From: an uncultured Flavobacteriales bacterium
GTDB taxonomy: Bacteria; Bacteroidota; Bacteroidia; Flavobacteriales_D; Crocinitomicaceae
Reading direction: 5' to 3'
Assembly (NCBI GenBank): GCA_913054135.1
Contig: CAJXJK010000005.1
Location: 206,925-270,924 of the forward strand
DNA length: 64,000 nucleotides
A model generated the notes under the pieces. The model did no database searches and had not been told where the DNA came from. It worked only from the letters and a program-made list of their open reading frames with translations. Below, piece by piece: positions 1,053 through 33,307 of this stretch (the first letter of the stretch is position 1; every line of letters begins with the position of its first letter). A program made the position numbers and the translations under genes.

Positions 1053-2777
1053 TTGAAAAAATACATTCCCATATTAGAATGGCTTCCCAATTATAAAGCC
1101 AGTACTTTAAAAAAAGACTTGCCTGCAGGCTTAACAATCGGAATCATAATGATTCCTCAAGGGTTGGCCTATGCAATGATTGCAGGTTTGCCGCCTATAT
1201 ATGGTTTGTATGCAGCCTTATTACCTCAATTTATATATGCTCTTTTAGGAACCTCAAGACAATTGTCGGTTGGTCCTGTAGCAATGGATTCACTTTTGGT
1301 AGCATCCGGAATAGGAGCGTTGAGCTTAGCTGATCCCAGTGATTACTTATCAGTAGCCATATTTTTAGCACTCTTTATGGGTTGCGTGCAATTCCTTTTA
1401 GGAGTTTTACGAATGGGATTTTTGGTCAATTTTCTCTCTAAACCCATTATCTCAGGATTCACCTCAGCTGCGGCCCTAATTATAGGGTTTTCGCAATTAA
1501 AGTATCTAACGGGAGCTGAGATTGAGCGAAGCAATGTGTTTCATAATATAGTTCAAAACACACTTGACAAGATTAACGAAACCAATATGACTTCCCTATG
1601 GATAGGATTGGCCGGTATAGCTATCATATATGGATTAAAGAAGTGGAAAAAGTCATTCCCAGGAGCCTTACTTGTTGTTGTGGCGTCAATTGTATTTATG
1701 TACATGAGTGGGTTAGATCAAACTGGGGTTGATATCGTCGGTAAAATACCTGAAGGCTTACCATCATTTCAAGTACCATCAATTACACAAGATCAATTTT
1801 GGGAAATTGCTCCTTTCGCCTTCGCTCTAGCCTTAGTGGCCTTTACTGAAGCTATTTCAATTGGTAAGTCAATAGAACATCAGCATGATGATTATAAAAT
1901 TAATCCTAATCAAGAATTGAGAGCCTTAGGAATTTCAAATATTGTCGGGTCTTTTTTCATGTCCTATCCTACAACCGCAAGCTTCTCTCGGTCAGCAATT
2001 AATAATGAGGTAGGAGCAAAAACAGGAATGGCTTCAATTATTGGAGCTGTGATTATTGCCTTAACCTTACTTTTTTTAACCCCACTTTTCTTTTATTTAC
2101 CAAAACCAATATTAGCTTCAGTAGTAATGGTATCGGTTTTTGGATTAATTGATCTCAAGTACCCAATTCAATTGCTGAAGAGAAGGCCAGATGAATTTCT
2201 TTCTTTGGTCATTACCTTTTTAGCAACATTGTTTATTGGCATTATCGCAGGTATTATTATTGGAATTTTGTTCTCATTACTCTTGTTGGTTTACAGAACT
2301 GCCAAACCCCATATTGCAGAGCTAGGAAGAGTGGGAGAGTCTGATTACTTTAAAAATGTAGAACGATTTGAAGATGTTAATGAAAGAGAAGATCTCTTGG
2401 TTTTGAGGTTTGACAGCCAATTATATTTTGGGAATACTGACTTCTTTAAAACTGAATTGACAAGGCGTGTGGAACGTAAAAAAGGAAAGTTATCTGCCAT
2501 TATTCTTAATGCTGAGTCAATTAATTATATTGATTCAACCGGAGCCATAGTTCTTTGCAACGTGATTAAGGAATATAAAGTTAAAGAGATTCAATTTTTC
2601 ATAACCGGAGCAATAGGTCCTACAAGAGATATCCTATTGAAAAGTGGCGTGATGAAAGAGCTGGGAGAAGATTATCTCTTTGTAAAAACCCACGAAGCTG
2701 TTGATTTTATTGATCGCGGAGTTGGTAAAAATGAAATACAAGACAAGATCGCACGTCAAACTAAAAAGGAAAAGTGA
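1053..2777 (+). CDS. SulP/SLC26 family anion permease with STAS domain
   Basis: DLPAGLTIGIIMIPQGLAYAMIAGLPPIYGLY and GTSRQLSVGP signatures, multiple TM helices, C-terminal STAS (RFDSQLYFGN...INYIDSTG). Start placed at TTG 1053; the ORF track opens at 1011. Confidence 0.92.
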   Translation: MKKYIPILEWLPNYKASTLKKDLPAGLTIGIIMIPQGLAYAMIAGLPPIYGLYAALLPQFIYALLGTSRQLSVGPVAMDSLLVASGIGALSLADPSDYLSVAIFLALFMGCVQFLLGVLRMGFLVNFLSKPIISGFTSAAALIIGFSQLKYLTGAEIERSNVFHNIVQNTLDKINETNMTSLWIGLAGIAIIYGLKKWKKSFPGALLVVVASIVFMYMSGLDQTGVDIVGKIPEGLPSFQVPSITQDQFWEIAPFAFALALVAFTEAISIGKSIEHQHDDYKINPNQELRALGISNIVGSFFMSYPTTASFSRSAINNEVGAKTGMASIIGAVIIALTLLFLTPLFFYLPKPILASVVMVSVFGLIDLKYPIQLLKRRPDEFLSLVITFLATLFIGIIAGIIIGILFSLLLLVYRTAKPHIAELGRVGESDYFKNVERFEDVNEREDLLVLRFDSQLYFGNTDFFKTELTRRVERKKGKLSAIILNAESINYIDSTGAIVLCNVIKEYKVKEIQFFITGAIGPTRDILLKSGVMKELGEDYLFVKTHEAVDFIDRGVGKNEIQDKIARQTKKEK

Positions 2778-2834: not shown

Positions 2835-4244
2835 ATGAAAGTAGAACAATTATATACAGGATGTTTGGCACAAGGTGCTTATTACATTGAAAGTAACGGA
2901 GAAGCGGCAATCATTGATCCGCTAAGAACAGTTGACGGCTACATTAAAATGGCTGCAGATAGAGGAGCGAAGATTAAGTATATTTTTGAGACTCACTTTC
3001 ATGCAGATTTTGTGAGTGGTCACGTGACCTTGGCGAAGGCCACAGGTGCTCCTATAGTTTACGGTCCGACCGCGAATCCACAATTTGATTGTGTGATAGG
3101 AGAAGACAATCAAGAATTCAAATTGGGTGATGTGACTATCAAATTGTTACACACTCCTGGTCATACCATGGAGAGTTCATCATATTTATTGATTGATGAA
3201 AACGGTAAAGAGCATTCATTGTTTTCAGGTGATACCTTGTTCTTAGGAGATGTTGGACGTCCTGATTTAGCTCAAAAGGCTGCTTCAATGACACAAGAAG
3301 AATTGGCAGGAATACTTTATGAAAGTTTAAGAAATAAGGTGATGACTTTGGCAGATGATGTGATTGTTTATCCTGGACATGGAGCAGGTTCTGCATGTGG
3401 TAAAAACATGAGTTCTGAAACAGTTGGTTCAATTGGACACGAGAAAGCAACAAACTATGCTTTGAGAGCAGATATGTCAAAAGAAGAGTTTGTCAAAGAA
3501 GTTACAGATGGCTTAATGGCTCCCCCAGCATATTTTCCTCTGAATGTTAAAATGAATAAAGAAGGATACGATCACTTTGATGAGGTATTGAATAGATCAA
3601 ATAAAGGTTTAAGTCCTCAAGCATTTGATGCTGCTGCGAATGAAACAAGTGCTGTAGTTTTAGATACAAGACATCAAACAGAATTCTCAAAAGGATTTAT
3701 ACCAAAATCTACTTTCATAGGAATTGATGGTGGATTTGCTCCTTGGGTTGGAGCATTGATTAAAGATGTTGAACAACCAATATTACTTGTGGTAGACGAA
3801 GGAAGAAGAGAAGAAGTAGTTACTAGGCTGGCAAGAGTAGGTTTTGATAATGTGTTAGGGTATTTAGAAGGAGGATTTGAAGCTTGGAAAGCGTCAGGTA
3901 AAGAAGTAGATTCTTTTGAAAGCATTTCAGCTGAAGACCTAGCAAAAATTCAAGGTAATGAAGACGTTAAGATTTGTGATGTCAGAAAACCTGGCGAGTA
4001 TGCTGCAGAACATATTGATGGAGCATGTACGGCACCATTAGATGATTTGAATAACTATTTAGAAAAGTTCGATCCAAACAAAACTAATTATGTTCACTGC
4101 TTAGGAGGGTACAGATCGGTAATAGCAATTTCAATATTAAAAGCAAGAGGAATCCATAATGTGGTTGACGTTCTTGGAGGCTTTAAAGCAATTGAAAAAG
4201 CAGATTTTAAGTTGACAGATTTTGTCTGTCCAACGACTTCATAA
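2835..4244 (+). CDS. MBL-fold persulfide dioxygenase-like hydrolase fused to two rhodanese domains (CstB/Blh-like)
   Basis: ETHFHADFVSG, HTPGHT, GDTLF.GDVGRPDL, YPGHGAGSACGK; C-terminal rhodanese with HCLGGYRS. Start set at MKVEQLY. Confidence 0.9.
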   Translation: MKVEQLYTGCLAQGAYYIESNGEAAIIDPLRTVDGYIKMAADRGAKIKYIFETHFHADFVSGHVTLAKATGAPIVYGPTANPQFDCVIGEDNQEFKLGDVTIKLLHTPGHTMESSSYLLIDENGKEHSLFSGDTLFLGDVGRPDLAQKAASMTQEELAGILYESLRNKVMTLADDVIVYPGHGAGSACGKNMSSETVGSIGHEKATNYALRADMSKEEFVKEVTDGLMAPPAYFPLNVKMNKEGYDHFDEVLNRSNKGLSPQAFDAAANETSAVVLDTRHQTEFSKGFIPKSTFIGIDGGFAPWVGALIKDVEQPILLVVDEGRREEVVTRLARVGFDNVLGYLEGGFEAWKASGKEVDSFESISAEDLAKIQGNEDVKICDVRKPGEYAAEHIDGACTAPLDDLNNYLEKFDPNKTNYVHCLGGYRSVIAISILKARGIHNVVDVLGGFKAIEKADFKLTDFVCPTTS

Positions 4245-26329: not shown

Positions 26330-27241
26330 ATGAAACACTTTAGCACCTTATCGTCCTATTTTGAATATTTGGAACTTCCGAGTCCTGAGCATCCAATGTT
26401 TAGTGTAATGTCTGCAATGGGAGAAAGTTTTTTGCCTTGCCCAAAGGAGAGTTCGCCTCCAATCACGACTGATTGCTACAACATAAGTTTGAAGAAAATA
26501 CTCAAAGGTGATTTGAATTATGGACGAACCAAGTATGACTTTACAAATGGAGCTTTGATCTTTATCTCTCCAAGACAAGTGTTGCAGTGGGATAGCAGTG
26601 TTTCATTTGAGCAAAAAGGGTTTTCGATTAACCTTCATGAAGATTTCATAAAAGGAACAGAACTCGAGCAACAAATTAAGAATTATGGTTTCTTTTCATA
26701 CTCTGTGAATGAAGCTTTGCATTTGTCACCAAGCGAAGAGAAACAAATTGAGTCAATCGTTGAAAGCATTGAGGCTGAATATCATAATAATCAAGATGCT
26801 TTTAGTAAAGAGATTATTATTGCCCACTTAAGCACTTTACTTAAATACGCAAACCGTTATTATGAGCGTCAATTTTTGAATAGAAAAGAACTGTCAAATG
26901 ATCTTCTTGAGCAGTTTAATATTCAACTTGAAAAGTATTTAGCTGCTGGTTTACTTGAAGAAAATGGTGTTCCGACTATTGAACTTTTGGCTAATAAAAT
27001 GGAGGTGACTCAACGATATTTGAGCGATACCCTTAAAAAAGAAACAGGTAAAACAACAACTGAACATTTGCAGTTGTTTTTGATTGATGAAGCGAAGAAT
27101 TTGCTACTAAGACCTAATTCGTCAATCTCCGAAACGGCTTATCAATTAGGATTTGAATATCCGCAATATTTCTCAAGATTGTTTAAGAAGAAAGTGGGAG
27201 TAAGCCCAAAGCAATTTATTGAAAGTCATTCAATGAATTAA
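26330..27241 (+). CDS. AraC family transcriptional regulator
   Basis: GRTKYDFTNGAL N-domain; C-terminal HTH SISETAYQLGFEYPQYFSRLFKKKVGVSP. Confidence 0.92.
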   Translation: MKHFSTLSSYFEYLELPSPEHPMFSVMSAMGESFLPCPKESSPPITTDCYNISLKKILKGDLNYGRTKYDFTNGALIFISPRQVLQWDSSVSFEQKGFSINLHEDFIKGTELEQQIKNYGFFSYSVNEALHLSPSEEKQIESIVESIEAEYHNNQDAFSKEIIIAHLSTLLKYANRYYERQFLNRKELSNDLLEQFNIQLEKYLAAGLLEENGVPTIELLANKMEVTQRYLSDTLKKETGKTTTEHLQLFLIDEAKNLLLRPNSSISETAYQLGFEYPQYFSRLFKKKVGVSPKQFIESHSMN

Positions 27242-27290: not shown

Positions 27291-27992
27291 CTAAGAATTA
27301 TACAGTTTACTAACAGTACTCTTATATGTTTGCCCGATAGGAATTTTATCGGTTCCAATCTGAATTTGATTTCCTTCTATGAGCTTAATCTTTTCAAGCG
27401 CAACGATAAATGATTTATGAACTCTTAAAAAGGTCTCTTTGGGTAAAAGTTCTTCAAAAGCTGAGATTTTTTCATGACTTACAAGCATTTCCTCTTTCAA
27501 GAATAATTTGGTGTAATTTCCATAAGCCTCTATGTAAAGCAAGTCATTTAAGTCAATTTGATGATGCTTTTTATCTCCTTTAACAAAAAATCGAGCCGAA
27601 GTTGAACTATTAGAAACTTCTTTAACTGTTGATTTTGGAGTTTCAGATTCTGATACTTTATTTACTGCCTTTACCAAACGATCGAAACTGAAAGGTTTGA
27701 GAAGATAGTCCACTACGTTTAGCTCAAATCCTTCTAATGCGTACTCTTTATAAGCTGTTGTTATGATTGTTTTCGGAGGGTTTTGCAAGGTTTTTAAAAA
27801 GTCAAGTCCTTTTAATTTGGGCATATTGATGTCTAAAAACATAAAGTCTACCTTGTTTTCATTTAAATACTGCATGGCTTCCATAGCACTATAGCAATCT
27901 TTTTCTAATTGAAGATGTGGCAGCATGCTACAGAATTCTTTAATAATATCATGAGCTAATGGCTCGTCATCAATAATTATGTACTTAAGCAT
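27291..27992 (-). CDS. LytTR family response regulator
   Basis: IIDDEPLA, FLDINMP, IITTAY..YALEGFELNVVDYLLKPF, FLRVHKSFIV. Confidence 0.93.
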   Translation of the reverse strand: MLKYIIIDDEPLAHDIIKEFCSMLPHLQLEKDCYSAMEAMQYLNENKVDFMFLDINMPKLKGLDFLKTLQNPPKTIITTAYKEYALEGFELNVVDYLLKPFSFDRLVKAVNKVSESETPKSTVKEVSNSSTSARFFVKGDKKHHQIDLNDLLYIEAYGNYTKLFLKEEMLVSHEKISAFEELLPKETFLRVHKSFIVALEKIKLIEGNQIQIGTDKIPIGQTYKSTVSKLYNS

Positions 27993-28950
27993 CTTTAAAG
28001 ATTTTTAATTTTGTTTTATAAATGTTGGCTGCTACATCCGCAGTGTACTCGTGTTTACCTTTATACAATAAAGACAGCCTTTTAATAAGATTATTTAACC
28101 CAATACCACTTGATTCATTTTGATTTTCACGATCAAAATTATTCTCAATTTCAAAACAGATGAAATTACCTTCTTCATACAGATGGATAGTTATAAAGGC
28201 GTTTTCGGCAAGTGTTTCTATTCCATGTTTGAAAGCATTTTCTAACAGTATAATATACATTAAAGGAGCAACTTCTAGATTCGTGTCAACTTCATGATTA
28301 AAGGTTATTTCGACCTGTTTTTTATAACGTATCTTATGCAGCTCAATATAGTTTTCTAAGTATGTGATTTCATCCAATAGTTTTACTTTTTCCTTTTCTC
28401 CTTCATAAATGGTGTATCGCATCATGTCAGATAATTTCAAGATCACCTCTGGTGCTTGATCTGATTTTGTGATGGTTAGGGCATACAAATTATTTAAGGT
28501 GTTAAAGAAAAAATGAGGGTTGATTTGAGAACGTAATAAACTTAACTCTGCCTCTCGTTTTCCTGCTTTCAAATTTTGAACCAACTTCCATTGTTCAAAT
28601 ATCCATAAACCTAGTCCAAGAAACATAGGGATGGGAATCAAAAAGGCTATAAGATAAAGATCATCTCTTATTTTTAGATAGGTCTCAAAATCTTCAGAAG
28701 ATAAACGGATGTAAGTGAAGATTAGAATTAGCGGAACGAAGTACAAAACAATCACTTTCCAGTACTTTCTAACGAAAGAAGGCATTAGCAAATGAACGAA
28801 CCCTATCCAAAAGGCCAGTAACAGCAGTATAGTTAGGGGATTGTCTAAGTAATTCATTGAACCTTCCACCACTATTATCACAGCTAGCAGTAGGAGCAAG
28901 GATCCAACTCTCATTGCAATTTTCTTTATCTTCTTTTTAAGGTCACTCAT
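27985..28950 (-). CDS. LytS/YehU-type sensor histidine kinase
   Basis: TM helices; LRSQINPHFFFNTLNNLY; LLENAFKHG; SGIGLNNL. Confidence 0.92.
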   Translation of the reverse strand: MSDLKKKIKKIAMRVGSLLLLLAVIIVVEGSMNYLDNPLTILLLLAFWIGFVHLLMPSFVRKYWKVIVLYFVPLILIFTYIRLSSEDFETYLKIRDDLYLIAFLIPIPMFLGLGLWIFEQWKLVQNLKAGKREAELSLLRSQINPHFFFNTLNNLYALTITKSDQAPEVILKLSDMMRYTIYEGEKEKVKLLDEITYLENYIELHKIRYKKQVEITFNHEVDTNLEVAPLMYIILLENAFKHGIETLAENAFITIHLYEEGNFICFEIENNFDRENQNESSGIGLNNLIKRLSLLYKGKHEYTADVAANIYKTKLKIFKDA

Positions 28951-29046
28951 AGTTCAAAACTACTGTACTAAAGGGATATCAACAACTATTTTGACAGACA
29001 CCAGTCAAATTGATACAAACACCCTTTTTTTTGGGTCGAACCATGG

Positions 29047-29143
29047 TTTGATTCGCTTAAACATAGGTGTAAGGTAATTATTCTTTAGTTCATCATCTAT
29101 TCTTTTTAAGGCCAAATTTCGACAGCATATTTGTCCTGTAATC
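29047..29143 (+). promoter_or_regulatory. Duplicated promoter region, copy A (upstream of OM receptor)
   Basis: Ungapped similarity to 31844-31940, including identical GTTCATCATCTATT, GACA.CATATTTGT and TGTAATC. Confidence 0.7.
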
Positions 29144-29194
29144 AAAGGATGATTAGTCAGTCCTACTAATGACTAAAAAGAAAAATAAAGCATT

Positions 29195-31696
29195 ATGGAA
29201 TATTCAATTTTAATCTTCAAAACTACTGGGCTATTAGCATTTATAGTATGCTGGTATTTGTTCAATAGTAAAAGAAAAAAATCTAAATCTACAGGGAAAA
29301 GAATGCTCTCAACGTTTTTCTCGCTTATTGTAATGTTTGCATCCTTTTCTGCAAGTGCTCAGAGCCAAATTGAAATTTCTGGACAAGTAAAGGATATCGA
29401 AACAAAAGAAAACCTTCTTTATTCAAAAGTTACCGTATTAAATAATCAGGATAGCATCATAAGTGGAGGTATTACAAACGAAAAGGGATTCTTTAAGATT
29501 CCTGTTAATCCAGGGTCATATCAAATAGTTATTAGTTCTCTTGGTTACATTAATGACAGTGTATCCATTGGATTGATTAGACAAGAAAGTTTTTTAGGAG
29601 TCTTTAAATTGCAAGAAGATACACTTACGTTAGCCGAGATTGAGGTTGTTGCAAATTCTAGAACAGAGAGCTTGGATAAAGATGTTCAACTGGTAACAAA
29701 AACGCTTAGGAACGGAACAACTGCAGCTAAGGATGTCCTTAACAAAATAACAGGAGTCTCCTATGATGATTATGCAGGTGTCATAAAAGTTGATGGTGAT
29801 GCGAATATCATGGTTCTCGTAAATGGGGTAGAAAAAAGTCAGGAATACATTCAAAATTTGAATCCTGAAAGACTACTGAAAGTAGAAACTATAAGAGACC
29901 CAGGAGGACGTTACGGACTTGAAGGATACTCTGCTATCCTCAATATCGTTTTAAAATCTAATTACTCCGGAACTGAAGTATATGTAGAGGAAATGCAATT
30001 GGTTGATATCGACACAGATGGAAAAGATCTTGATTTATTAATAGGAGCTGTTGCAGGGACCTATAACTACACAAGAGACAATTTGAATATTTATGGCGGC
30101 CTTCGTTTTGGACGAAAACAATTCGAAATCACAACAGAATCGGAAACAGAGTATGAAGATGGGGTAGTGGTTTTTGAGAATGCAGAATCGAATGATCCAA
30201 ATGCCCTTATCCTTGAATACAATTCACGTTACAACTTAGGAATTGACTACCAGATTAATCCAAAACATATCATAAGTTTTGAAAGCAATATGGAAACTTT
30301 TCCTTTGAACGGAAAACAAAATAGTTTTGATCACATAACTCAGATATACTCAAATGACTCATTGACTGATCAATTTAGGTTTAGTTCTGAAGGGAACAGT
30401 AAGAAATGGGAATCTTATAATTCACTTTTCTACGTTGGAGAGTTTAACAAATCCAACAAGTTGAACATGAACTTCACCTATTCAAATTATAGAGAAAGTT
30501 TTACGAGCAATACTTGGCAAGAAGAAGATTATAATCGTGAGGAAGAAGGGGTAAATAAAAAACAATATACCCGATTCTATGCTGAATTTGATCACGTTTT
30601 ATCACCAAATAAGAACATCCAATTCGGCTATGGAAATTCGTGGAGGGAATTGAACAACACTTATGATATCAGTCAATTGGACATCAGTTCAAAGCAAATG
30701 AATATGATCTCAAATGACTTTCAGTTGACTGATATACGTCACAAGCTTTATTCGAACTTTAGCTGGAAAATGAATAAAAAACTGGGAATGCGAGCAGGAA
30801 TTGCCGTTGAAACTTCTTCTCCAAGCGTTCTTGATCAACAATTTAGTTATCAGGTAATTCAACCACTACTTGACTTGAAATACAACATTTCAAAGAAAGT
30901 CAATATTAAATTCAAATACCGTGTATCAACAGATTATCCAACAATAGCACAAACGAATCCATTTGTAAGCCAGATAAACTCTAGAATTACAGAAACAGGA
31001 AATCCATTTCTGAGACCATCATCAACACATAGGTTCTCTCTTCGTCTTAATGCACTGCGTGGCTTGTTTGCTTTTGAGCCATACTTGCATTATTCAAACA
31101 ATTTGATCGCATCAATTGGTGATTTAGGAGATAACAATGTTTTCAACTATAGATTTGAAAATGTAGACAGGTATCAAAGAACCGGAGGGAAACTAAACTT
31201 TAGAAAGTATGTGAAAAAGTATAATTTTCTAATCAAAAGCAAGTTAGAAGTGTTTCATGCTTCAGTAGAATCGGCGAGTGGAACCAATAGCTTTTTTGAT
31301 TGGAGAGCAGGTGTTGATCTTATGTACATCTCTCCGAAGCATGGCAGTGTTCTTGGATTGAAGTATCAGCATGATATGACCAAACAAATTGATGGATTAG
31401 GTTATAAAAAAGGTGATATTGATTTTTGGATGTTGTTATACAAACAACCTCTCTTCAAGAAAAAAGCAAGTGTAATGGTTGGATGTTTTTTACCTATTGG
31501 ATTAGGAGCAAATTTCAATCAGGGGTCGTACGCCGAGTCAACAGGATTCAGGACGACTACTAACAATGACGTATCATTGGTGAAGAACATGTTTATTCTT
31601 GAGTTCACTTATCGATTTAGTAATGGAGAGAAAGTAAAGAAAAAGCAAAAAGAGGTTGAGCGTGAATCAGAAAATGGAGGAGGAGGTCCATTTTAA
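29195..31696 (+). CDS. Outer-membrane beta-barrel / TonB-dependent-type receptor with CarboxypepD_reg-like domain
   Basis: EISGQVKDIETKENLLYSKV; plug region VLVNG...LNPERLLKVETI.DPGGRYG.EG..AILNIVLK; GNP.LRP; barrel end ILEFTYRF. May instead start at MLSTFF. Confidence 0.82.
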   Translation: MEYSILIFKTTGLLAFIVCWYLFNSKRKKSKSTGKRMLSTFFSLIVMFASFSASAQSQIEISGQVKDIETKENLLYSKVTVLNNQDSIISGGITNEKGFFKIPVNPGSYQIVISSLGYINDSVSIGLIRQESFLGVFKLQEDTLTLAEIEVVANSRTESLDKDVQLVTKTLRNGTTAAKDVLNKITGVSYDDYAGVIKVDGDANIMVLVNGVEKSQEYIQNLNPERLLKVETIRDPGGRYGLEGYSAILNIVLKSNYSGTEVYVEEMQLVDIDTDGKDLDLLIGAVAGTYNYTRDNLNIYGGLRFGRKQFEITTESETEYEDGVVVFENAESNDPNALILEYNSRYNLGIDYQINPKHIISFESNMETFPLNGKQNSFDHITQIYSNDSLTDQFRFSSEGNSKKWESYNSLFYVGEFNKSNKLNMNFTYSNYRESFTSNTWQEEDYNREEEGVNKKQYTRFYAEFDHVLSPNKNIQFGYGNSWRELNNTYDISQLDISSKQMNMISNDFQLTDIRHKLYSNFSWKMNKKLGMRAGIAVETSSPSVLDQQFSYQVIQPLLDLKYNISKKVNIKFKYRVSTDYPTIAQTNPFVSQINSRITETGNPFLRPSSTHRFSLRLNALRGLFAFEPYLHYSNNLIASIGDLGDNNVFNYRFENVDRYQRTGGKLNFRKYVKKYNFLIKSKLEVFHASVESASGTNSFFDWRAGVDLMYISPKHGSVLGLKYQHDMTKQIDGLGYKKGDIDFWMLLYKQPLFKKKASVMVGCFLPIGLGANFNQGSYAESTGFRTTTNNDVSLVKNMFILEFTYRFSNGEKVKKKQKEVERESENGGGGPF

Positions 31697-31745
31697 GAAA
31701 GACCTTCTAGACCTTTCGTTTGCTTTGACAGCTTCTTAAGTTAAT

Positions 31746-31776
31746 AAGGCCTTTCATGTCTGAAAGGCCTTTTTTT
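31746..31776 (+). terminator. Intrinsic terminator
   Basis: AAGGCCTTTCA-tgtc-TGAAAGGCCTT plus T-run. Confidence 0.85.
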
Positions 31777-31843
31777 CTGCAACAATCAGGACGTACATTG
31801 CTCGAAATGTCAAGAACACCTCATTTTTTATGTTCAACTGCGT

Positions 31844-31940
31844 TTTGGTTGCCTTAAGTCTATGTGTGGACCGTTAAGTCTGTTGTTCATCATCTATTTT
31901 TTATAGGCCCAAACATAGACACCATATTTGTATTGTAATC
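31844..31940 (+). promoter_or_regulatory. Duplicated promoter region, copy B (upstream of 32001)
   Basis: See copy A. Also carries TTAAGTCT direct repeats at 31854 and 31874. Confidence 0.7.
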
Positions 31941-32000
31941 GAGCTGTAAATGAATTAACCAATTAACATTCAAGCAGCCTAACCTTTAAAAAAATAAATT

Positions 32001-32315
32001 ATGAAAAAGTTTATTCTAGTAGCAGCATTATTGGTAACGAGTATCAGTTTTGCCGCGGTGAAACCTTCATTAAGAAAAGAGATCGTTGAAAAAGTTAACA
32101 TTGACTTAAGTGATATCGAGTTGGATGAGTTCCATGAAGACTTTGTTGTTGTGAGTTTTCAAATCAAAGATTCTCAAATCTTAATCACAGAAATTCAAGG
32201 ATCTCAGGAGCAATTAATAGAATCAGTTCAAAAAGAACTAACTCAAATGTGCATCCAAAAGGAATACTCTAACACAGACATTTATAATTACAAATTCACA
32301 TTTAAAAAAGTATAA
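32001..32315 (+). CDS. Small exported hypothetical protein
   Basis: Signal peptide MKKFILVAALLVTSISFAA; 104 aa, acidic. Confidence 0.7.
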   Translation: MKKFILVAALLVTSISFAAVKPSLRKEIVEKVNIDLSDIELDEFHEDFVVVSFQIKDSQILITEIQGSQEQLIESVQKELTQMCIQKEYSNTDIYNYKFTFKKV

Positions 32316-32341: not shown

Positions 32342-33307
32342 ATGAAGGCAGCAATAGTAACAAATTACGGAAAACCAGAAGTATTAGAATTAAGAGAGGT
32401 TCAAAAACCATCTCCGAAAGAAAATCAAATCTTATTAAAGATTCACACCTCTTCAGTGACTTCAGGAGATGCTAGAATTAGAAGAGCAGATCCATATGTT
32501 ATCAGATTGATTTTCGGATTTAAGAGACCTAGAAAATCAATTCTGGGTGTAGTGGTTGCAGGAGAGGTGGAGTCAGTTGGAGATAAGGTAAGTAAGTTTA
32601 AAGTTGGAGACAAGGTATTTGGGACAACTGGAATGTCATTCGGAGCGCACGCTCAATACCAATGCATTTCTGAAGAAGGAACCTTGGCTTTGATTCCAGA
32701 GAATATGTCTTACGAAGATGCGGCGGCGATTCCATTTGGAGGTACTGCTGCGCTTCACTTTCTTAGAAAAGGTAATGTTTCAAAAGGGCAAAAAGTATTG
32801 GTTTTTGGAGCATCAGGTGCATTGGGTACGGCAGCTATTCAATTAGCTAAAGAACGTGGGGCCGAAGTAACAGCAGTTTGTAGTGGTAAAAATGCTGAAA
32901 TGGTAGCTGAATTAGGAGCAGATATTGTCATTGATTACACAAAAGAGAATTTTACCGAGAACGGAGAAATGTATGATGTCATTTTTGACACCATTGGAAA
33001 AAGTTCATTCACTAAAGGGATGAAATCTTTAACCAAGAAAGGAACTATGCTTTTGGCAAGTGCAAACATGGGATTAATGATTAGAGGCGGGCTGACTTCT
33101 ATGTTCGGTAAGAAGAAAGTGATTTCAGGAGTGATTAAGGAAACGGCAAACGATATGAAATTCTTCAAAAAACTGATCGAAGCCGGAAAATTAAAAGCAG
33201 TAATTGACAAAGTTTATCCTTTAGAAGAAATAGCTAGAGCACATACACATGTTGATGCAGGTCACAAGAAAGGAAATGTCATTATTAGTATGAATCACGC
33301 TTCATAA
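32342..33307 (+). CDS. NAD(P)-dependent MDR oxidoreductase (zinc-independent, quinone-reductase-like)
   Basis: AGEVE.VG..V..FKVGD.VFG, AAAIPFGG.AA, VLVFGASGALG.AAIQLAK, VIDKVYPLEEI..AH. Confidence 0.88.
   Translation: MKAAIVTNYGKPEVLELREVQKPSPKENQILLKIHTSSVTSGDARIRRADPYVIRLIFGFKRPRKSILGVVVAGEVESVGDKVSKFKVGDKVFGTTGMSFGAHAQYQCISEEGTLALIPENMSYEDAAAIPFGGTAALHFLRKGNVSKGQKVLVFGASGALGTAAIQLAKERGAEVTAVCSGKNAEMVAELGADIVIDYTKENFTENGEMYDVIFDTIGKSSFTKGMKSLTKKGTMLLASANMGLMIRGGLTSMFGKKKVISGVIKETANDMKFFKKLIEAGKLKAVIDKVYPLEEIARAHTHVDAGHKKGNVIISMNHAS

What the first reader, a model, noticed from the sequence alone, without database searches (positions are those of the whole stretch)
29047..31940. Duplicated ~97-bp promoter defines a probable LytS/LytTR regulon
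29047-29143 (before the OM receptor, divergent from the TCS) and 31844-31940 (before the 104-aa secreted protein) align without gaps. They share TTTG..TT..CTTAA, TA.GTGT, an identical GTTCATCATCTATT, and GACA.CATATTTGT..TGTAATC. In both, the 14-mer starts exactly 38 nt before a non-consensus -7 box (CATATTTG instead of TAnnTTTG), as expected for activator-dependent promoters. Copy B has TTAAGTCT repeats 20 nt apart, close to LytTR direct-repeat geometry.
Basis: partly seen in the sequence, partly recalled or inferred. Interest (0 to 1): 0.65.

Follow-up and report, generated by a model that had tools for sequence, protein, structure and literature searches.

The report
Conserved promoter module of a LytTR two-component system
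The two similar stretches are real copies of a roughly 165-base regulatory region. It always sits next to, or close to, one sensor-kinase/LytTR-regulator gene pair across the bacterial order Flavobacteriales, so it is very probably that regulator's target promoter: a sound, previously undescribed but unsurprising piece of gene regulation.

Summary
**Observation.** Confirmed. Window 29047-29143 and 31844-31940 match at 69 of 97 positions without gaps; the next best placement in the window matches at 48 of 97.

**Extent.** The repeat is longer than reported, about 165 nt: copy A is roughly 28981-29145 and copy B roughly 31779-31942.

**Conservation.**
- A profile of the element finds about 21 copies in Crocinitomicaceae-type genomes and metagenome contigs, 1-3 per genome.
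- Each copy lies just upstream of a gene: the outer-membrane barrel, the 104-aa secreted protein (with an oxidoreductase behind it), or a beta-lactamase-family protein.
- Ten of eleven loci with enough flanking DNA carry the orthologous histidine kinase/LytTR regulator pair next to a copy.
- Five Flavobacteriaceae genomes, found through the kinase protein alone, have a homologous element aligned in register in the same divergent intergenic region. Their target genes differ.
- Homologues of the target genes that lack the two-component system lack the element. Three of these promoters keep the same core promoter under a different upstream module, next to a TPR-AraC regulator.

**Other tests.**
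- No RNA structure is predicted.
- The element has a reproducible 21-nt internal periodicity, which is the LytTR repeat geometry.

- The TTAAGTCT repeat is not conserved in copy A or in most orthologous copies.
- The AgrA consensus is not matched.
- The argument from a weak -7 box is poor.

**Limits.** Regulator binding and transcription start sites are untested.

**Verdict.** A new member of a known kind, of moderate interest.

The parts
27291..27992 (-). Response regulator, receiver + LytTR DNA-binding domain (233 aa)
   Evidence: Pfam Response_reg 1.2e-20 and LytTR 1.8e-16. Orthologues at 74-83% identity sit next to the element in relatives.
27985..28950 (-). LytS-type sensor histidine kinase (321 aa, PF06580), overlapping the regulator gene by 8 nt and so in one operon with it
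   Evidence: Pfam His_kinase 2.7e-26. More than 100 orthologues at 62-82% identity across Flavobacteriales.
28955..28962 (-). Consensus -7 box (TAGTTTTG) of the kinase operon's own promoter. It ends 4 nt before the kinase ATG, so the predicted start site is the A of the ATG at 28950 (leaderless mRNA).
   Evidence: The CAT-N4-CAAAnnTA arrangement is conserved in nearly all kinase-adjacent copies across two families; one deviates in the box. The -12 to -5 position of TAnnTTTG is taken from PMC9723704. Inference; no start-site data.
28981..29145 (+). Element copy A: the full conserved regulatory module upstream of the outer-membrane barrel gene, divergent from the kinase
   Evidence: nhmmer E 2.5e-45. 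78.8% identical to the orthologous copy in L151, against 52-62% at third codon positions of the regulator, kinase and barrel genes and 34-45% in flanking non-coding DNA.
28993..29062 (+). Four 21-nt-phased direct repeats of type YAWAC: GACAGAC 28993-28999, TACAAAC 29014-29020, GTCGAAC 29035-29041 and the weaker CTTAAAC 29056-29062. Candidate regulator sites.
   Evidence: Shift 21 is the top autocorrelation peak: z 3.27 (21 copies), z 3.26 (9 diverged or Flavobacteriaceae copies) and z 4.66 (14 cross-family copies). The AAC of the second and third repeats is invariant in all 21 copies. Coordinates.
29038..29049 (+). Near-palindrome GAACCATGGTTT (consensus AAACCATGGTTT; the AAC and GTT ends are conserved), overlapping the third repeat
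   Evidence: Top inverted-repeat score in the profile. The ends are conserved across copies. Function unassigned.
29067..29075 (+). Conserved block GTGTAAGGT, 21 nt upstream of the proximal block; a possible distal half of a LytTR pair (only 4 of 9 positions match the proximal 9-mer)
   Evidence: GTGTA is conserved in most copies. The pairing is inference.
29088..29101 (+). The 14-mer GTTCATCATCTATT (first 11 nt invariant in all Crocinitomicaceae-type copies), at about -50 to -37, ending 1-4 nt before the -33 T-run
   Evidence: It is also invariant in copies found without using it as a search pattern: L151 A and B, and C33_A. In Flavobacteriaceae it degenerates to nTnnATCAnnT.
29103..29107 (+). 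-33-like T-run (TTTTT instead of TTG/TTTG)
   Evidence: TTTT is conserved in at least 19 of 21 copies at -35 to -32.
29126..29133 (+). -7 box CATATTTG (7 of 8 match to TAnnTTTG). Predicted start site about 29138-29140, inside the conserved TGTAATC.
   Evidence: ATATTTG is nearly invariant. In diverged copies the start codon lies about 21 nt after the TTTG, which leaves no room for another promoter. Box position from PMC9723704.
29303..31696 (+). Outer-membrane beta-barrel protein (OMP_b-brl_3 + CarboxypepD_reg). The ORF opens at 29195, but the signal peptide and the homologues begin at Met37 = 29303.
   Evidence: Pfam. The L151 orthologue is called at 797 aa. The L001 homologue starts at its signal peptide.
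31746..31771 (+). Intrinsic terminator of the barrel gene, directly upstream of copy B
   Evidence: 11-pair stem followed by a T-run. It shows that copy B begins a new transcription unit.
31779..31942 (+). Element copy B, upstream of the 104-aa protein gene. It is the most diverged of all copies (52-64% identical to the others).
   Evidence: nhmmer E 3e-38; identity matrix. Sub-features: phased repeats at 31790-31796, 31810-31817 and 31832-31838; 14-mer at 31885-31898; -7 box at 31923-31930; predicted start site about 31935-31937.
31854..31881 (+). Pair of TTAAGTCT repeats 20 nt apart, found in this form only in copy B
   Evidence: Not present in copy A or in most orthologues. Only the MB391_a-type copies have a similar TGAAGC...TTAAGC pair 20 nt apart.
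32001..32315 (+). 104-aa secreted protein of unknown function (no Pfam or NCBIfam match)
   Evidence: Small family, 7 database hits. AlphaFold2 model has pLDDT 77, and its only fold matches (TonB/TolA C-terminal domains) are not significant.
32342..33307 (+). Zinc-type NAD(P)H quinone oxidoreductase, 26 nt after the 104-aa gene and so probably in the same operon
   Evidence: Pfam and NCBIfam. The 104-aa gene followed by the oxidoreductase is conserved in GLR79, MB391, C33, L027 and L151.

Best explanation
Each copy is a roughly 165-bp regulatory module: a weak sigma-A promoter (T-run at -33, nATATTTG at -7) preceded by about 130 bp of conserved protein-binding sequence.

**Proposed mechanism (inferred).** The divergently encoded membrane kinase (PF06580 type) phosphorylates the LytTR regulator. 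The regulator then binds the module and activates transcription of the outer-membrane barrel gene (copy A) and of the operon holding the 104-aa protein and the oxidoreductase (copy B). The most likely contact sites are the 21-bp-phased YAWAC repeats at about -145 to -76 and the invariant GTTCATCATCT block that abuts the -33 element. Copy A lies back-to-back with the kinase operon's own consensus promoter, so the same sites may also feed back on the two-component system.

**Shown here.**
- The repeat is real and about 165 nt long.
- It is under purifying selection.
- The duplication is ancient.
- It is tied to the two-component system across two families.
- It has 21-nt periodicity and no predicted RNA structure.

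**Inferred.** The start sites, which blocks the regulator touches, and whether it activates.
For: 1. **Real repeat.** 69/97 identities against a background maximum of 48/97.

2. **Conserved across species.**
- About 21 copies are found by nhmmer with E-values from 1e-22 to 1e-49.
- Against the closest relative, L151, copy A is 78.8% identical, compared with 52-62% at third codon positions of the neighbouring regulator, kinase and barrel genes and 34-45% in flanking non-coding DNA.

3. **Ancient duplication.** Kinase-adjacent copies from different genomes resemble each other (73-81%) more than window copy A resembles copy B (61%).

4. **Linked to the two-component system in both search directions.**
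- Copies found by DNA have the kinase and regulator adjacent in the window, L151, GLR79, MB391, C33, L027, L221, L047, L065 and L147.
- Kinase orthologues found by protein alone in Tenacibaculum, Polaribacter, Lutimonas, Lutibacter and Lacinutrix all have a homologous element aligned in register in the divergent intergenic region, with the 38-nt spacing kept where it was counted, in Tenacibaculum and Polaribacter.

5. **Negative controls.**
- Homologues without the two-component system lack the element: the barrel gene in L001, the 104-aa gene in L026 and L028, and the oxidoreductase in L019.
- L026, L028 and the L019 oxidoreductase promoter keep the same core promoter and 5' UTR, but under a different upstream module with TAATTCAGAAC repeats next to a TPR-AraC regulator.

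6. **Promoter features.**
- A terminator lies directly before copy B.
- In diverged copies the ATG lies about 21 nt after the TTTG.
- The -7 and -33 elements sit where sigma-A elements sit in Flavobacterium (PMC9723704).

7. **LytTR geometry.**
- Shift 21 is the top autocorrelation peak in three alignments.
- LytTR regulators use 9-bp direct repeats 12-13 bp apart, 4-11 bp upstream of the -35 element (PMC6193735 and PMC5600425).
- The invariant 11-mer ends 4 nt before the -33 T-run.

8. **Not an RNA.** RNAalifold predicts no base pairs and Rfam gives no match.
Against: - There is no binding, start-site or expression data. No RNA runs exist for this organism.
- One locus, L149 (an 18-kb contig), carries the element before a 104-aa gene with no two-component system within about 8-10 kb. 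TPR-AraC regulators flank it instead.
- The AgrA-type consensus [TA][AC][CA]GTTN[AG][TG] is not matched at conserved positions.
- The clearest 21-nt repeats lie 60-110 bp upstream of the -33 element, further than in classical LytTR promoters.
- The promoter-proximal block has only a weak direct-repeat partner (4 of 9 positions).
- The periodicity statistic is at the family-wise 5% line in two of the three alignments.
- Part of the invariance of the 11-mer and of TATTTG comes from using them as search patterns, although copies found without those patterns agree.
Confidence: 0.7

Rival explanations
1. The module is a promoter, but it is controlled by a different factor, such as another transcription factor binding the AAACCATGGTTT palindrome or an alternative sigma factor reading GTTCATCATCT. 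On this view the two-component system is only a syntenic neighbour.
For: L149 has the element without a nearby two-component system. A conserved palindrome typical of dimeric helix-turn-helix regulators is present. The AgrA consensus is not matched. The same core promoter can evidently be driven by a different regulator type, a TPR-AraC protein.
Against: No other regulator gene is conserved next to the element. The window's 303-aa AraC gene at 26330-27241 is absent in GLR79, C33 and L151. The element tracks the kinase/regulator pair across two families while the target genes change completely. No sigma or anti-sigma gene lies nearby. The -7 and -33 elements fit sigma-A.
Confidence: 0.12
2. The element mainly serves the divergent kinase operon, as autoregulation or as a repressor operator. 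Its copies before other genes are carried-along duplicates, with the LytTR regulator acting as a repressor or having little effect on the forward promoters.
For: The phased repeats R1-R3 start about 7-10 bp upstream of the kinase promoter's -33 region, which is the classical LytTR autoregulation position (PMC6193735; geometry).
Against: Eleven copies with no divergent kinase gene keep the R2/R3 AAC invariants, the 11-mer and the forward -7 box. Copy B follows a terminator and precedes a gene. The kinase promoter itself has a perfect consensus -7 box, so it does not look activator-dependent.
Confidence: 0.08
3. The element is a transcribed cis-acting RNA (leader or riboswitch) or a small RNA, rather than a DNA-level operator.
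For: It is long (about 165 nt) and highly conserved non-coding sequence directly upstream of genes.
Against: RNAalifold finds no consensus pairs. Rfam gives no match. The only conserved sigma-A-like -7 box lies at the 3' end of the element, and in diverged copies the ATG follows it by about 21 nt. Conservation comes in short blocks with 21-nt phasing, as expected for DNA-binding sites.
Confidence: 0.03
4. The similarity is a neutral local duplication or a small mobile repeat with no function.
For: There are two copies 2.8 kb apart within one locus.
Against: The element is conserved well above the neutral rate. The copies cluster by position rather than by genome. It is found in at least 11 lineages and two families. 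Exact-pattern scans of 185,579 species genomes find no copies outside these loci, including only 2 in the complete 2.9-Mb chromosome OX044359.1. No terminal inverted repeats were seen.
Confidence: 0.02

Closest known systems
AgrA-dependent P2/P3 promoters of Staphylococcus aureus, and ComE/BlpR/PlnC-type promoters (LytTR response regulators)
   Same: A LytTR response regulator is encoded next to its targets. Several promoters in one locus share an upstream element. The element has an internal direct periodicity of 21 bp (9 + 12). A conserved block sits just upstream of the -35/-33 element, and the core promoter is weak (PMC5600425).
   Different: The consensus [TA][AC][CA]GTTN[AG][TG] is not matched. 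The module is much longer, about 130 bp of conserved upstream sequence with up to four phased repeats plus a palindrome. The promoter is of the Bacteroidota -33/-7 type. No peptide pheromone gene lies in the window.
HdrR/BrsR LytTR regulatory systems of Streptococcus mutans and relatives (PMC6193735)
   Same: Direct repeats 12 bp apart lie 4-11 bp upstream of the -35 element, autoregulation of the regulator's own operon is a defining trait, and repeat sequences diverge widely between systems. Here R1/R2 occupy that position relative to the kinase promoter.
   Different: Those systems pair a LytTR protein with a membrane inhibitor and have no kinase. Here the system is a classical kinase plus receiver-LytTR regulator, and autoregulation is only inferred.
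LytS/LytTR-type two-component systems BtsS/BtsR and YpdA/YpdB of Escherichia coli, and AlgZ/AlgR of Pseudomonas aeruginosa
   Same: Same domain architecture: a PF06580 kinase and a receiver-LytTR regulator. BtsR is the best NCBIfam hit of the regulator, at 117 bits against a cutoff of 246. From my own knowledge, these systems have very small regulons of one or a few target promoters carrying direct repeats, and AlgR also uses sites far upstream of its promoter.
   Different: The match is well below the equivalog cutoff, so this is not an orthologue. The target genes (outer-membrane barrel, small secreted protein, oxidoreductase) are unrelated to the carbon-starvation transporters or alginate genes. 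The signal is unknown.
Bacteroidota sigma-A promoters (TTG at -33, TAnnTTTG at -7)
   Same: The core of the element fits: a T-run at -35 to -32 and nATATTTG at -12 to -5 (PMC9723704).
   Different: The first position of the -7 box is never T in the 21 Crocinitomicaceae-type copies, and the -33 element lacks the G.

Membership tests
LytTR-regulator-dependent promoter (AgrA/ComE/HdrR type) | A regulator with a LytTR DNA-binding domain is encoded at the locus | tested here: met
   Pfam LytTR 1.8e-16 plus Response_reg. The pair is adjacent to the element in 15 of 16 informative loci.
LytTR-regulator-dependent promoter (AgrA/ComE/HdrR type) | Imperfect direct repeats of about 9 bp separated by 12-13 bp (21-22 bp period) | tested here: met
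   Shift 21 is the top autocorrelation peak in three alignments: z 3.27, 3.26 and 4.66, against a family-wise 95% threshold of about 3.25. The repeats TACAAAC and GTCGAAC are exactly 21 nt apart and conserved across two families. Significance is marginal in two of the three sets.
LytTR-regulator-dependent promoter (AgrA/ComE/HdrR type) | The proximal repeat lies 4-11 bp upstream of the -35 element | tested here: inconclusive
   The invariant 11-mer ends 4 nt before the -33 T-run, but its partner 21 nt upstream matches at only 4 of 9 positions. The clearest repeats lie at -145 to -76 of the forward promoter, although R1 lies about 7-10 bp from the kinase promoter's -33 region.
LytTR-regulator-dependent promoter (AgrA/ComE/HdrR type) | Match to the family consensus [TA][AC][CA]GTTN[AG][TG] | tested here: not met
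   No column has matches of at least 8 of 9 in most copies; the best is 13 of 21 copies, on the reverse strand, at a poorly conserved site. PMC6193735 shows that repeat sequences vary widely, so this weakens AgrA-likeness rather than LytTR control.
LytTR-regulator-dependent promoter (AgrA/ComE/HdrR type) | The regulator binds the sites and expression depends on it | not testable with these tools
   No RNA-seq runs were found. Needs gel-shift, footprinting or reporter assays.
Bacteroidota sigma-A promoter | TAnnTTTG at -12 to -5, with TTG about 19 nt upstream | tested here: met
   CATATTTG matches at 7 of 8 positions in both window copies. ATATTTG is nearly invariant. A conserved T-run lies 18-19 nt upstream. 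The homologous AraC-type promoters and three of the six Flavobacteriaceae promoters have a perfect TAnnTTTG at the same place. The start site is not mapped.
Structured cis-regulatory RNA or small RNA (Rfam) | Conserved secondary structure with covariation, or a match to a known family | tested here: not met
   RNAalifold predicts 0 pairs on 11 copies. The only Rfam hit is a chance lncRNA match at E 0.35.
Mobile or dispersed repeat (MITE/REP) | Many dispersed copies, terminal inverted repeats, no fixed relation to genes | tested here: not met
   There are 1-3 copies per genome, all at or near the two-component locus and all oriented toward a downstream gene. Only 2 exact-pattern hits occur in a complete 2.9-Mb chromosome.

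The most novel reading that the evidence does not exclude
The element may be the cognate operator-promoter of an order-wide, uncharacterised LytTR two-component system of Flavobacteriales that works as a peptide-responsive (quorum-sensing or bacteriocin-like) circuit.

In Lutimonas, Lutibacter and Lacinutrix, the homologous promoter is followed by conserved ORFs of about 28 aa (MRTL...WNAKRRFK). In Lutimonas and Lacinutrix these lie just upstream of an ABC exporter whose permease is fused to an M1-peptidase domain. That layout resembles the Gram-positive Com/Blp/Agr systems of peptide, processing exporter, kinase and LytTR regulator.

On this reading, the window's version has swapped the output genes for an outer-membrane barrel and a small periplasmic protein, and the promoter modules behave as exchangeable cassettes (LytTR-type against TPR-AraC-type) on a common core promoter.
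Probability: 0.15. Interest if true: 0.75.

Novelty: new member of a known kind. Interest (0 to 1): 0.45.

Why it matters
Transcriptional regulation in Bacteroidota, and in marine Flavobacteriales especially, is poorly mapped. LytTR regulators are numerous there, yet full-text searches of the paper library returned no described binding site or regulon for one in this group.

This finding supplies three things:
- a precisely bounded, deeply conserved DNA element;
- a specific regulator to test against it;
- target genes that change between lineages: an outer-membrane barrel, a small secreted protein, an oxidoreductase, beta-lactamase-family hydrolases, an S41 peptidase, and an ABC exporter with an M1-peptidase domain.

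That makes an order-wide signalling system directly testable with simple assays. It also shows that upstream regulatory modules can be exchanged on a fixed core promoter. In itself it is an expected kind of arrangement: a two-component system with adjacent targets that share a motif.

Tried and rejected
- **Rfam and RNAalifold** on the element gave nothing, so an RNA element was rejected.
- **AgrA consensus scan** found no conserved match.
- **TTAAGTCT pair as the LytTR site:** the exact repeat is confined to copy B.
- **RNA-seq or start-site evidence:** no RNA runs exist for the window, and only marine metagenome DNA runs hold 5-11% of its words.
- **Exact look-up of the window's 104-aa protein** found nothing on record.
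- **Other 14-mer hits:** the hits in L008, L012, L013 and L022 looked like further copies. In L008 the 14-mer lies in a YoeB-type toxin coding sequence, encoding RIDDEHR on the opposite strand next to a Phd/YefM antitoxin, so the hit is irrelevant; the other three align closely with it. Hits in Clostridia, Saccharibacteria and other groups are chance.
- **Window search for more copies:** searching for further copies of the 14-mer, for the core promoter, or for the AraC-type TAATTCAGAAC operator gave chance-level counts only.
- **Fold search with the 104-aa protein model:** TonB/TolA C-terminal domains rank first, but with E 0.35-1 and TM 0.35-0.47, which is not significant.
- **The window's own AraC gene (26330-27241) as the regulator:** rejected because it is not conserved at the locus in relatives.


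Full report
**1.

- Window 29047-29143 and 31844-31940 align without gaps at 69/97 identities. No other placement of either copy in the 64-kb window, on either strand, exceeds 48/97. The repeat finder reports the 3' 62 nt at 81%.
So are the identical 14-mer GTTCATCATCTATT (29088-29101 and 31885-31898), the 38-nt distance to CATATTTG (29126-29133 and 31923-31930), and the two TTAAGTCT copies 20 nt apart in copy B.
- The gene calls are correct:
  - receiver + LytTR regulator at 27291-27992(-);
  - PF06580 histidine kinase at 27985-28950(-);
  - OMP_b-brl_3/CarboxypepD_reg barrel on the + strand;
  - a 104-aa signal-peptide protein at 32001-32315, with no family match;
  - a zinc-type quinone oxidoreductase 26 nt further on.
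- The barrel ORF opens at 29195, but its signal peptide and its homologues begin at Met37 (29303).
- An intrinsic terminator at 31746-31771 lies directly upstream of copy B.

**2. The element is conserved in relatives**

- An exact scan of one genome per species for the 14-mer plus ATATTTG returned several Crocinitomicaceae and Flavobacteriales metagenome-assembled genomes.
- An nhmmer profile built from 11 copies gives envelopes of 28981-29157 (E 2.5e-45) and 31779-31956 (E 3e-38) in the window. It finds about 21 non-redundant copies in genome and metagenome loci.
- Each copy points at a downstream gene:
  - the barrel gene;
  - the 104-aa gene, often followed by the oxidoreductase, sometimes duplicated;
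  - in more diverged contigs, a 523-aa Beta-lactamase+DUF3471 protein (L047) or other signal-peptide proteins, whose ATG lies only about 21 nt after the TTTG.
- Against the closest relative (L151, whose 104-aa protein is 83% identical), copy A is 78.8% identical. Third codon positions of the regulator, kinase and barrel genes are 52-62% identical, and flanking non-coding DNA 34-45%.
- Kinase-adjacent copies from different genomes are closer to each other (73-81%) than window copy A is to copy B (61%). The duplication therefore predates these lineages and has been maintained.
- Copy B is the most diverged copy of all.

**3. The element is tied to the two-component system**

*Search direction 1: from the DNA element to its neighbours.*
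- The kinase/regulator pair is adjacent, and divergent from one copy, in the window, L151, GLR79, MB391, C33, L027, L221, L047, L065 and L147.
- The one exception with enough flanking DNA is L149. There the element precedes a 104-aa gene on an 18-kb contig with no two-component system, and two TPR-AraC regulators flank it.

*Search direction 2: from the kinase protein to its neighbours.*
- The kinase has more than 100 orthologues at 62-66% identity in Flavobacteriaceae.
- All five loci retrieved have the regulator gene immediately downstream of the kinase. In each, the divergent intergenic region aligns in register with the window element. The five are Tenacibaculum soleae, Polaribacter filamentus, Lutimonas zeaxanthinifaciens, Lutibacter flavus and Lacinutrix jangbogonensis.
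- The 38-nt spacing is kept where it was counted, in Tenacibaculum and Polaribacter.
- The target genes differ completely in these genomes: ABC_tran plus a permease fused to Peptidase_M1, Beta-lactamase+DUF3471, and Peptidase_S41.

*Negative controls.*
- Homologues of the target genes without the two-component system lack the element: the barrel gene in L001, the 104-aa gene in L026 and L028, and the oxidoreductase in L019.
- L026, L028 and the L019 oxidoreductase promoter keep the same core promoter and 5' UTR (TTTGTCnTGTAATCGAGCTGTA...). Their upstream part is different: TAATTCAGAAC repeats and a perfect TACATTTG -7 box, next to a TPR-AraC regulator of about 600 aa.
- GLR79 and L151 carry both module types in tandem before the barrel gene.
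- So the core promoter is shared, and the upstream 130 bp is the part that goes with the LytTR system.

**4. Anatomy and likely mechanism**

- In Flavobacterium psychrophilum, TAnnTTTG occupies -12 to -5 (PMC9723704). On that basis the start sites should be near 29138-29140 and 31935-31937.
- Relative to those start sites, the conserved T-run lies at -35 to -32 and acts as the -33 element. The invariant GTTCATCATCT lies at -50 to -40, ending 4 nt before the T-run.
- Further upstream are conserved blocks:
  - GTGTAAGG at about -71;
  - a near-palindrome, AAACCATGGTTT;
  - a T-run;
  - direct repeats of type YAWAC (GACAGAC, TACAAAC, GTCGAAC, CTTAAAC), each exactly 21 nt from the next.
- The 21-nt shift is the top autocorrelation peak in the 21-copy alignment (z 3.27 against a family-wise 95% threshold of 3.23). 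It is also the top peak in a largely separate set of diverged and Flavobacteriaceae copies (z 3.26 against 3.27) and in the combined cross-family set (z 4.66 against 3.23).
- LytTR regulators bind 9-bp imperfect direct repeats separated by 12-13 bp, usually 4-11 bp upstream of the -35 element. Repeat sequences differ widely between systems (PMC6193735; PMC5600425).
- The geometry therefore fits. The AgrA consensus itself does not, and which blocks the regulator touches remains an inference.
- Copies with no divergent kinase gene keep the upstream repeats, so those repeats serve the forward promoter and not only autoregulation.
- RNAalifold predicts no base pairs, and Rfam finds nothing.

**5.

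- The unit is about 165 nt.
- The TTAAGTCT pair is not general. Only MB391_a-type copies have a similar TGAAGC...TTAAGC pair 20 nt apart.
- The weak -7 box is a poor argument for activator dependence, because three of the six homologous Flavobacteriaceae promoters have a perfect box. It is still true that the first position is never T in the 21 Crocinitomicaceae-type copies.
- At exact-pattern stringency, every copy in the 185,579 species genomes lies in these loci, at the two-component locus in every genome except the L149 contig. That includes only two in the complete 2.9-Mb chromosome OX044359.1. The regulon therefore looks small and local, although degenerate sites elsewhere could not be scanned.

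**6. Caveats**

- The invariance of the 11-mer and of TATTTG is partly imposed by the search patterns. Copies found by profile or through proteins (C33_A, GLR79_C, L027, L151 A and B) do agree, while the Flavobacteriaceae copies show the 11-mer relaxing to nTnnATCAnnT.
- No expression, start-site or binding data exist.
- Full-text searches of the paper library found no description of this system or of any LytTR operator in Flavobacteriales.

**7. Verdict**

- This is a genuine, conserved, previously undescribed cis-regulatory module.
- It is very probably the target promoter of the adjacent LytS-like/LytTR two-component system: a new member of a known kind of arrangement.
- Interest is moderate. 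It rises if the peptide plus ABC-exporter context seen in Flavobacteriaceae orthologues proves to be a peptide-signalling circuit.

Noticed in passing
L026:6840-7000, L028:6870-7000, L019:6010-6180, L007:~1900-2110 (- strand), L151:~4090-4200: A second, alternative upstream module sits on the same core promoter and 5' UTR as the window element. It has the palindrome GTTCTGAATTATAATTCAGAAC, a further TAATTCAGAAC about 20 nt on, and a perfect -7 box TACATTTG. In L026, L028 and L019 it lies next to a TPR + AraC regulator of 593-607 aa. In GLR79 and L151 it sits in tandem downstream of the LytTR-type module before the barrel gene. The window has no such module (chance-level matches only).
   Followed up: partly
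window 28950-28962 (- strand): The kinase operon has its own consensus -7 box, TAGTTTTG, ending 4 nt before the ATG. That predicts a start site exactly at the A of the start codon, that is, a leaderless kinase-regulator mRNA. The arrangement CAT-N4-CAAAnnTA is conserved in nearly all kinase-adjacent copies from Crocinitomicaceae to Flavobacteriaceae; one deviates in the box.
   Followed up: partly
L232:~3680-3800, L233:~3680-3800, L234:1580-1900 (- strands): In Lutimonas, Lutibacter and Lacinutrix, the homologous promoter is followed by conserved ORFs of about 28 aa. The four sequences are MRTLINNQYKNRLIKTNGIRWNAKRRFK, MSTLNNTNIRIQIKASNNNVWNNKRRFR, MRTLNNNQITNRLSTTNSFKWNAKRRFK and MRTLSNIRITNRLSATHSATWNAKRRFK, the last two being in tandem in Lacinutrix. 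In Lutimonas and Lacinutrix they lie just upstream of an ABC ATPase and a permease fused to Peptidase_M1. The layout recalls peptide-pheromone or bacteriocin loci controlled by LytTR systems. No such ORFs lie in the window.
   Followed up: partly
window 29146-29302: The barrel gene has a 5' leader of about 165 nt. It holds an in-frame 36-codon extension (MEYSILIFKTTGLLAFIVCWYLFNSKRKKSKSTGKR) that is probably not translated as part of the protein. In L151 and GLR79 the corresponding stretch holds the AraC-type module, which looks partly deleted in the window.
   Followed up: partly
window 32001-32315: The 104-aa secreted protein belongs to a very small family (7 database hits, all unnamed). Its AlphaFold2 model (pLDDT 77) has a helix, a beta-hairpin, a helix and a strand. 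The best PDB fold matches are TolA and TonB C-terminal domains, but they are not significant (E 0.35-1, TM 0.35-0.47). This is intriguing next to a TonB-receptor-like barrel, but unproven.
   Followed up: partly
L015:2956-6513: In the C_MB391 genome the 104-aa gene is duplicated, one copy on each side of the barrel gene. The barrel protein's N-terminus (MKQLIFIVAILTSNLSFGA...) is that of the 104-aa protein, which indicates recombination between these genes.
   Followed up: no
L008:5640-5700, with similar hits in L012, L013 and L022: In L008 the 14-mer also occurs inside a YoeB-type toxin coding sequence, where its reverse complement encodes RIDDEHR, next to a Phd/YefM antitoxin. The L012, L013 and L022 hits align closely with it but their coding context was not examined. 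These exact-pattern hits are unrelated to the element.
   Followed up: yes
window 27985-28950 compared with L015:6762-7898: The kinase comes in two lengths. It is 321 aa in the window, GLR79 and C33, and 373-378 aa in MB391, L151, L047 and the Flavobacteriaceae. Both forms share the same start-codon context, so the short form lacks about 57 residues of the N-terminal membrane region.
   Followed up: no
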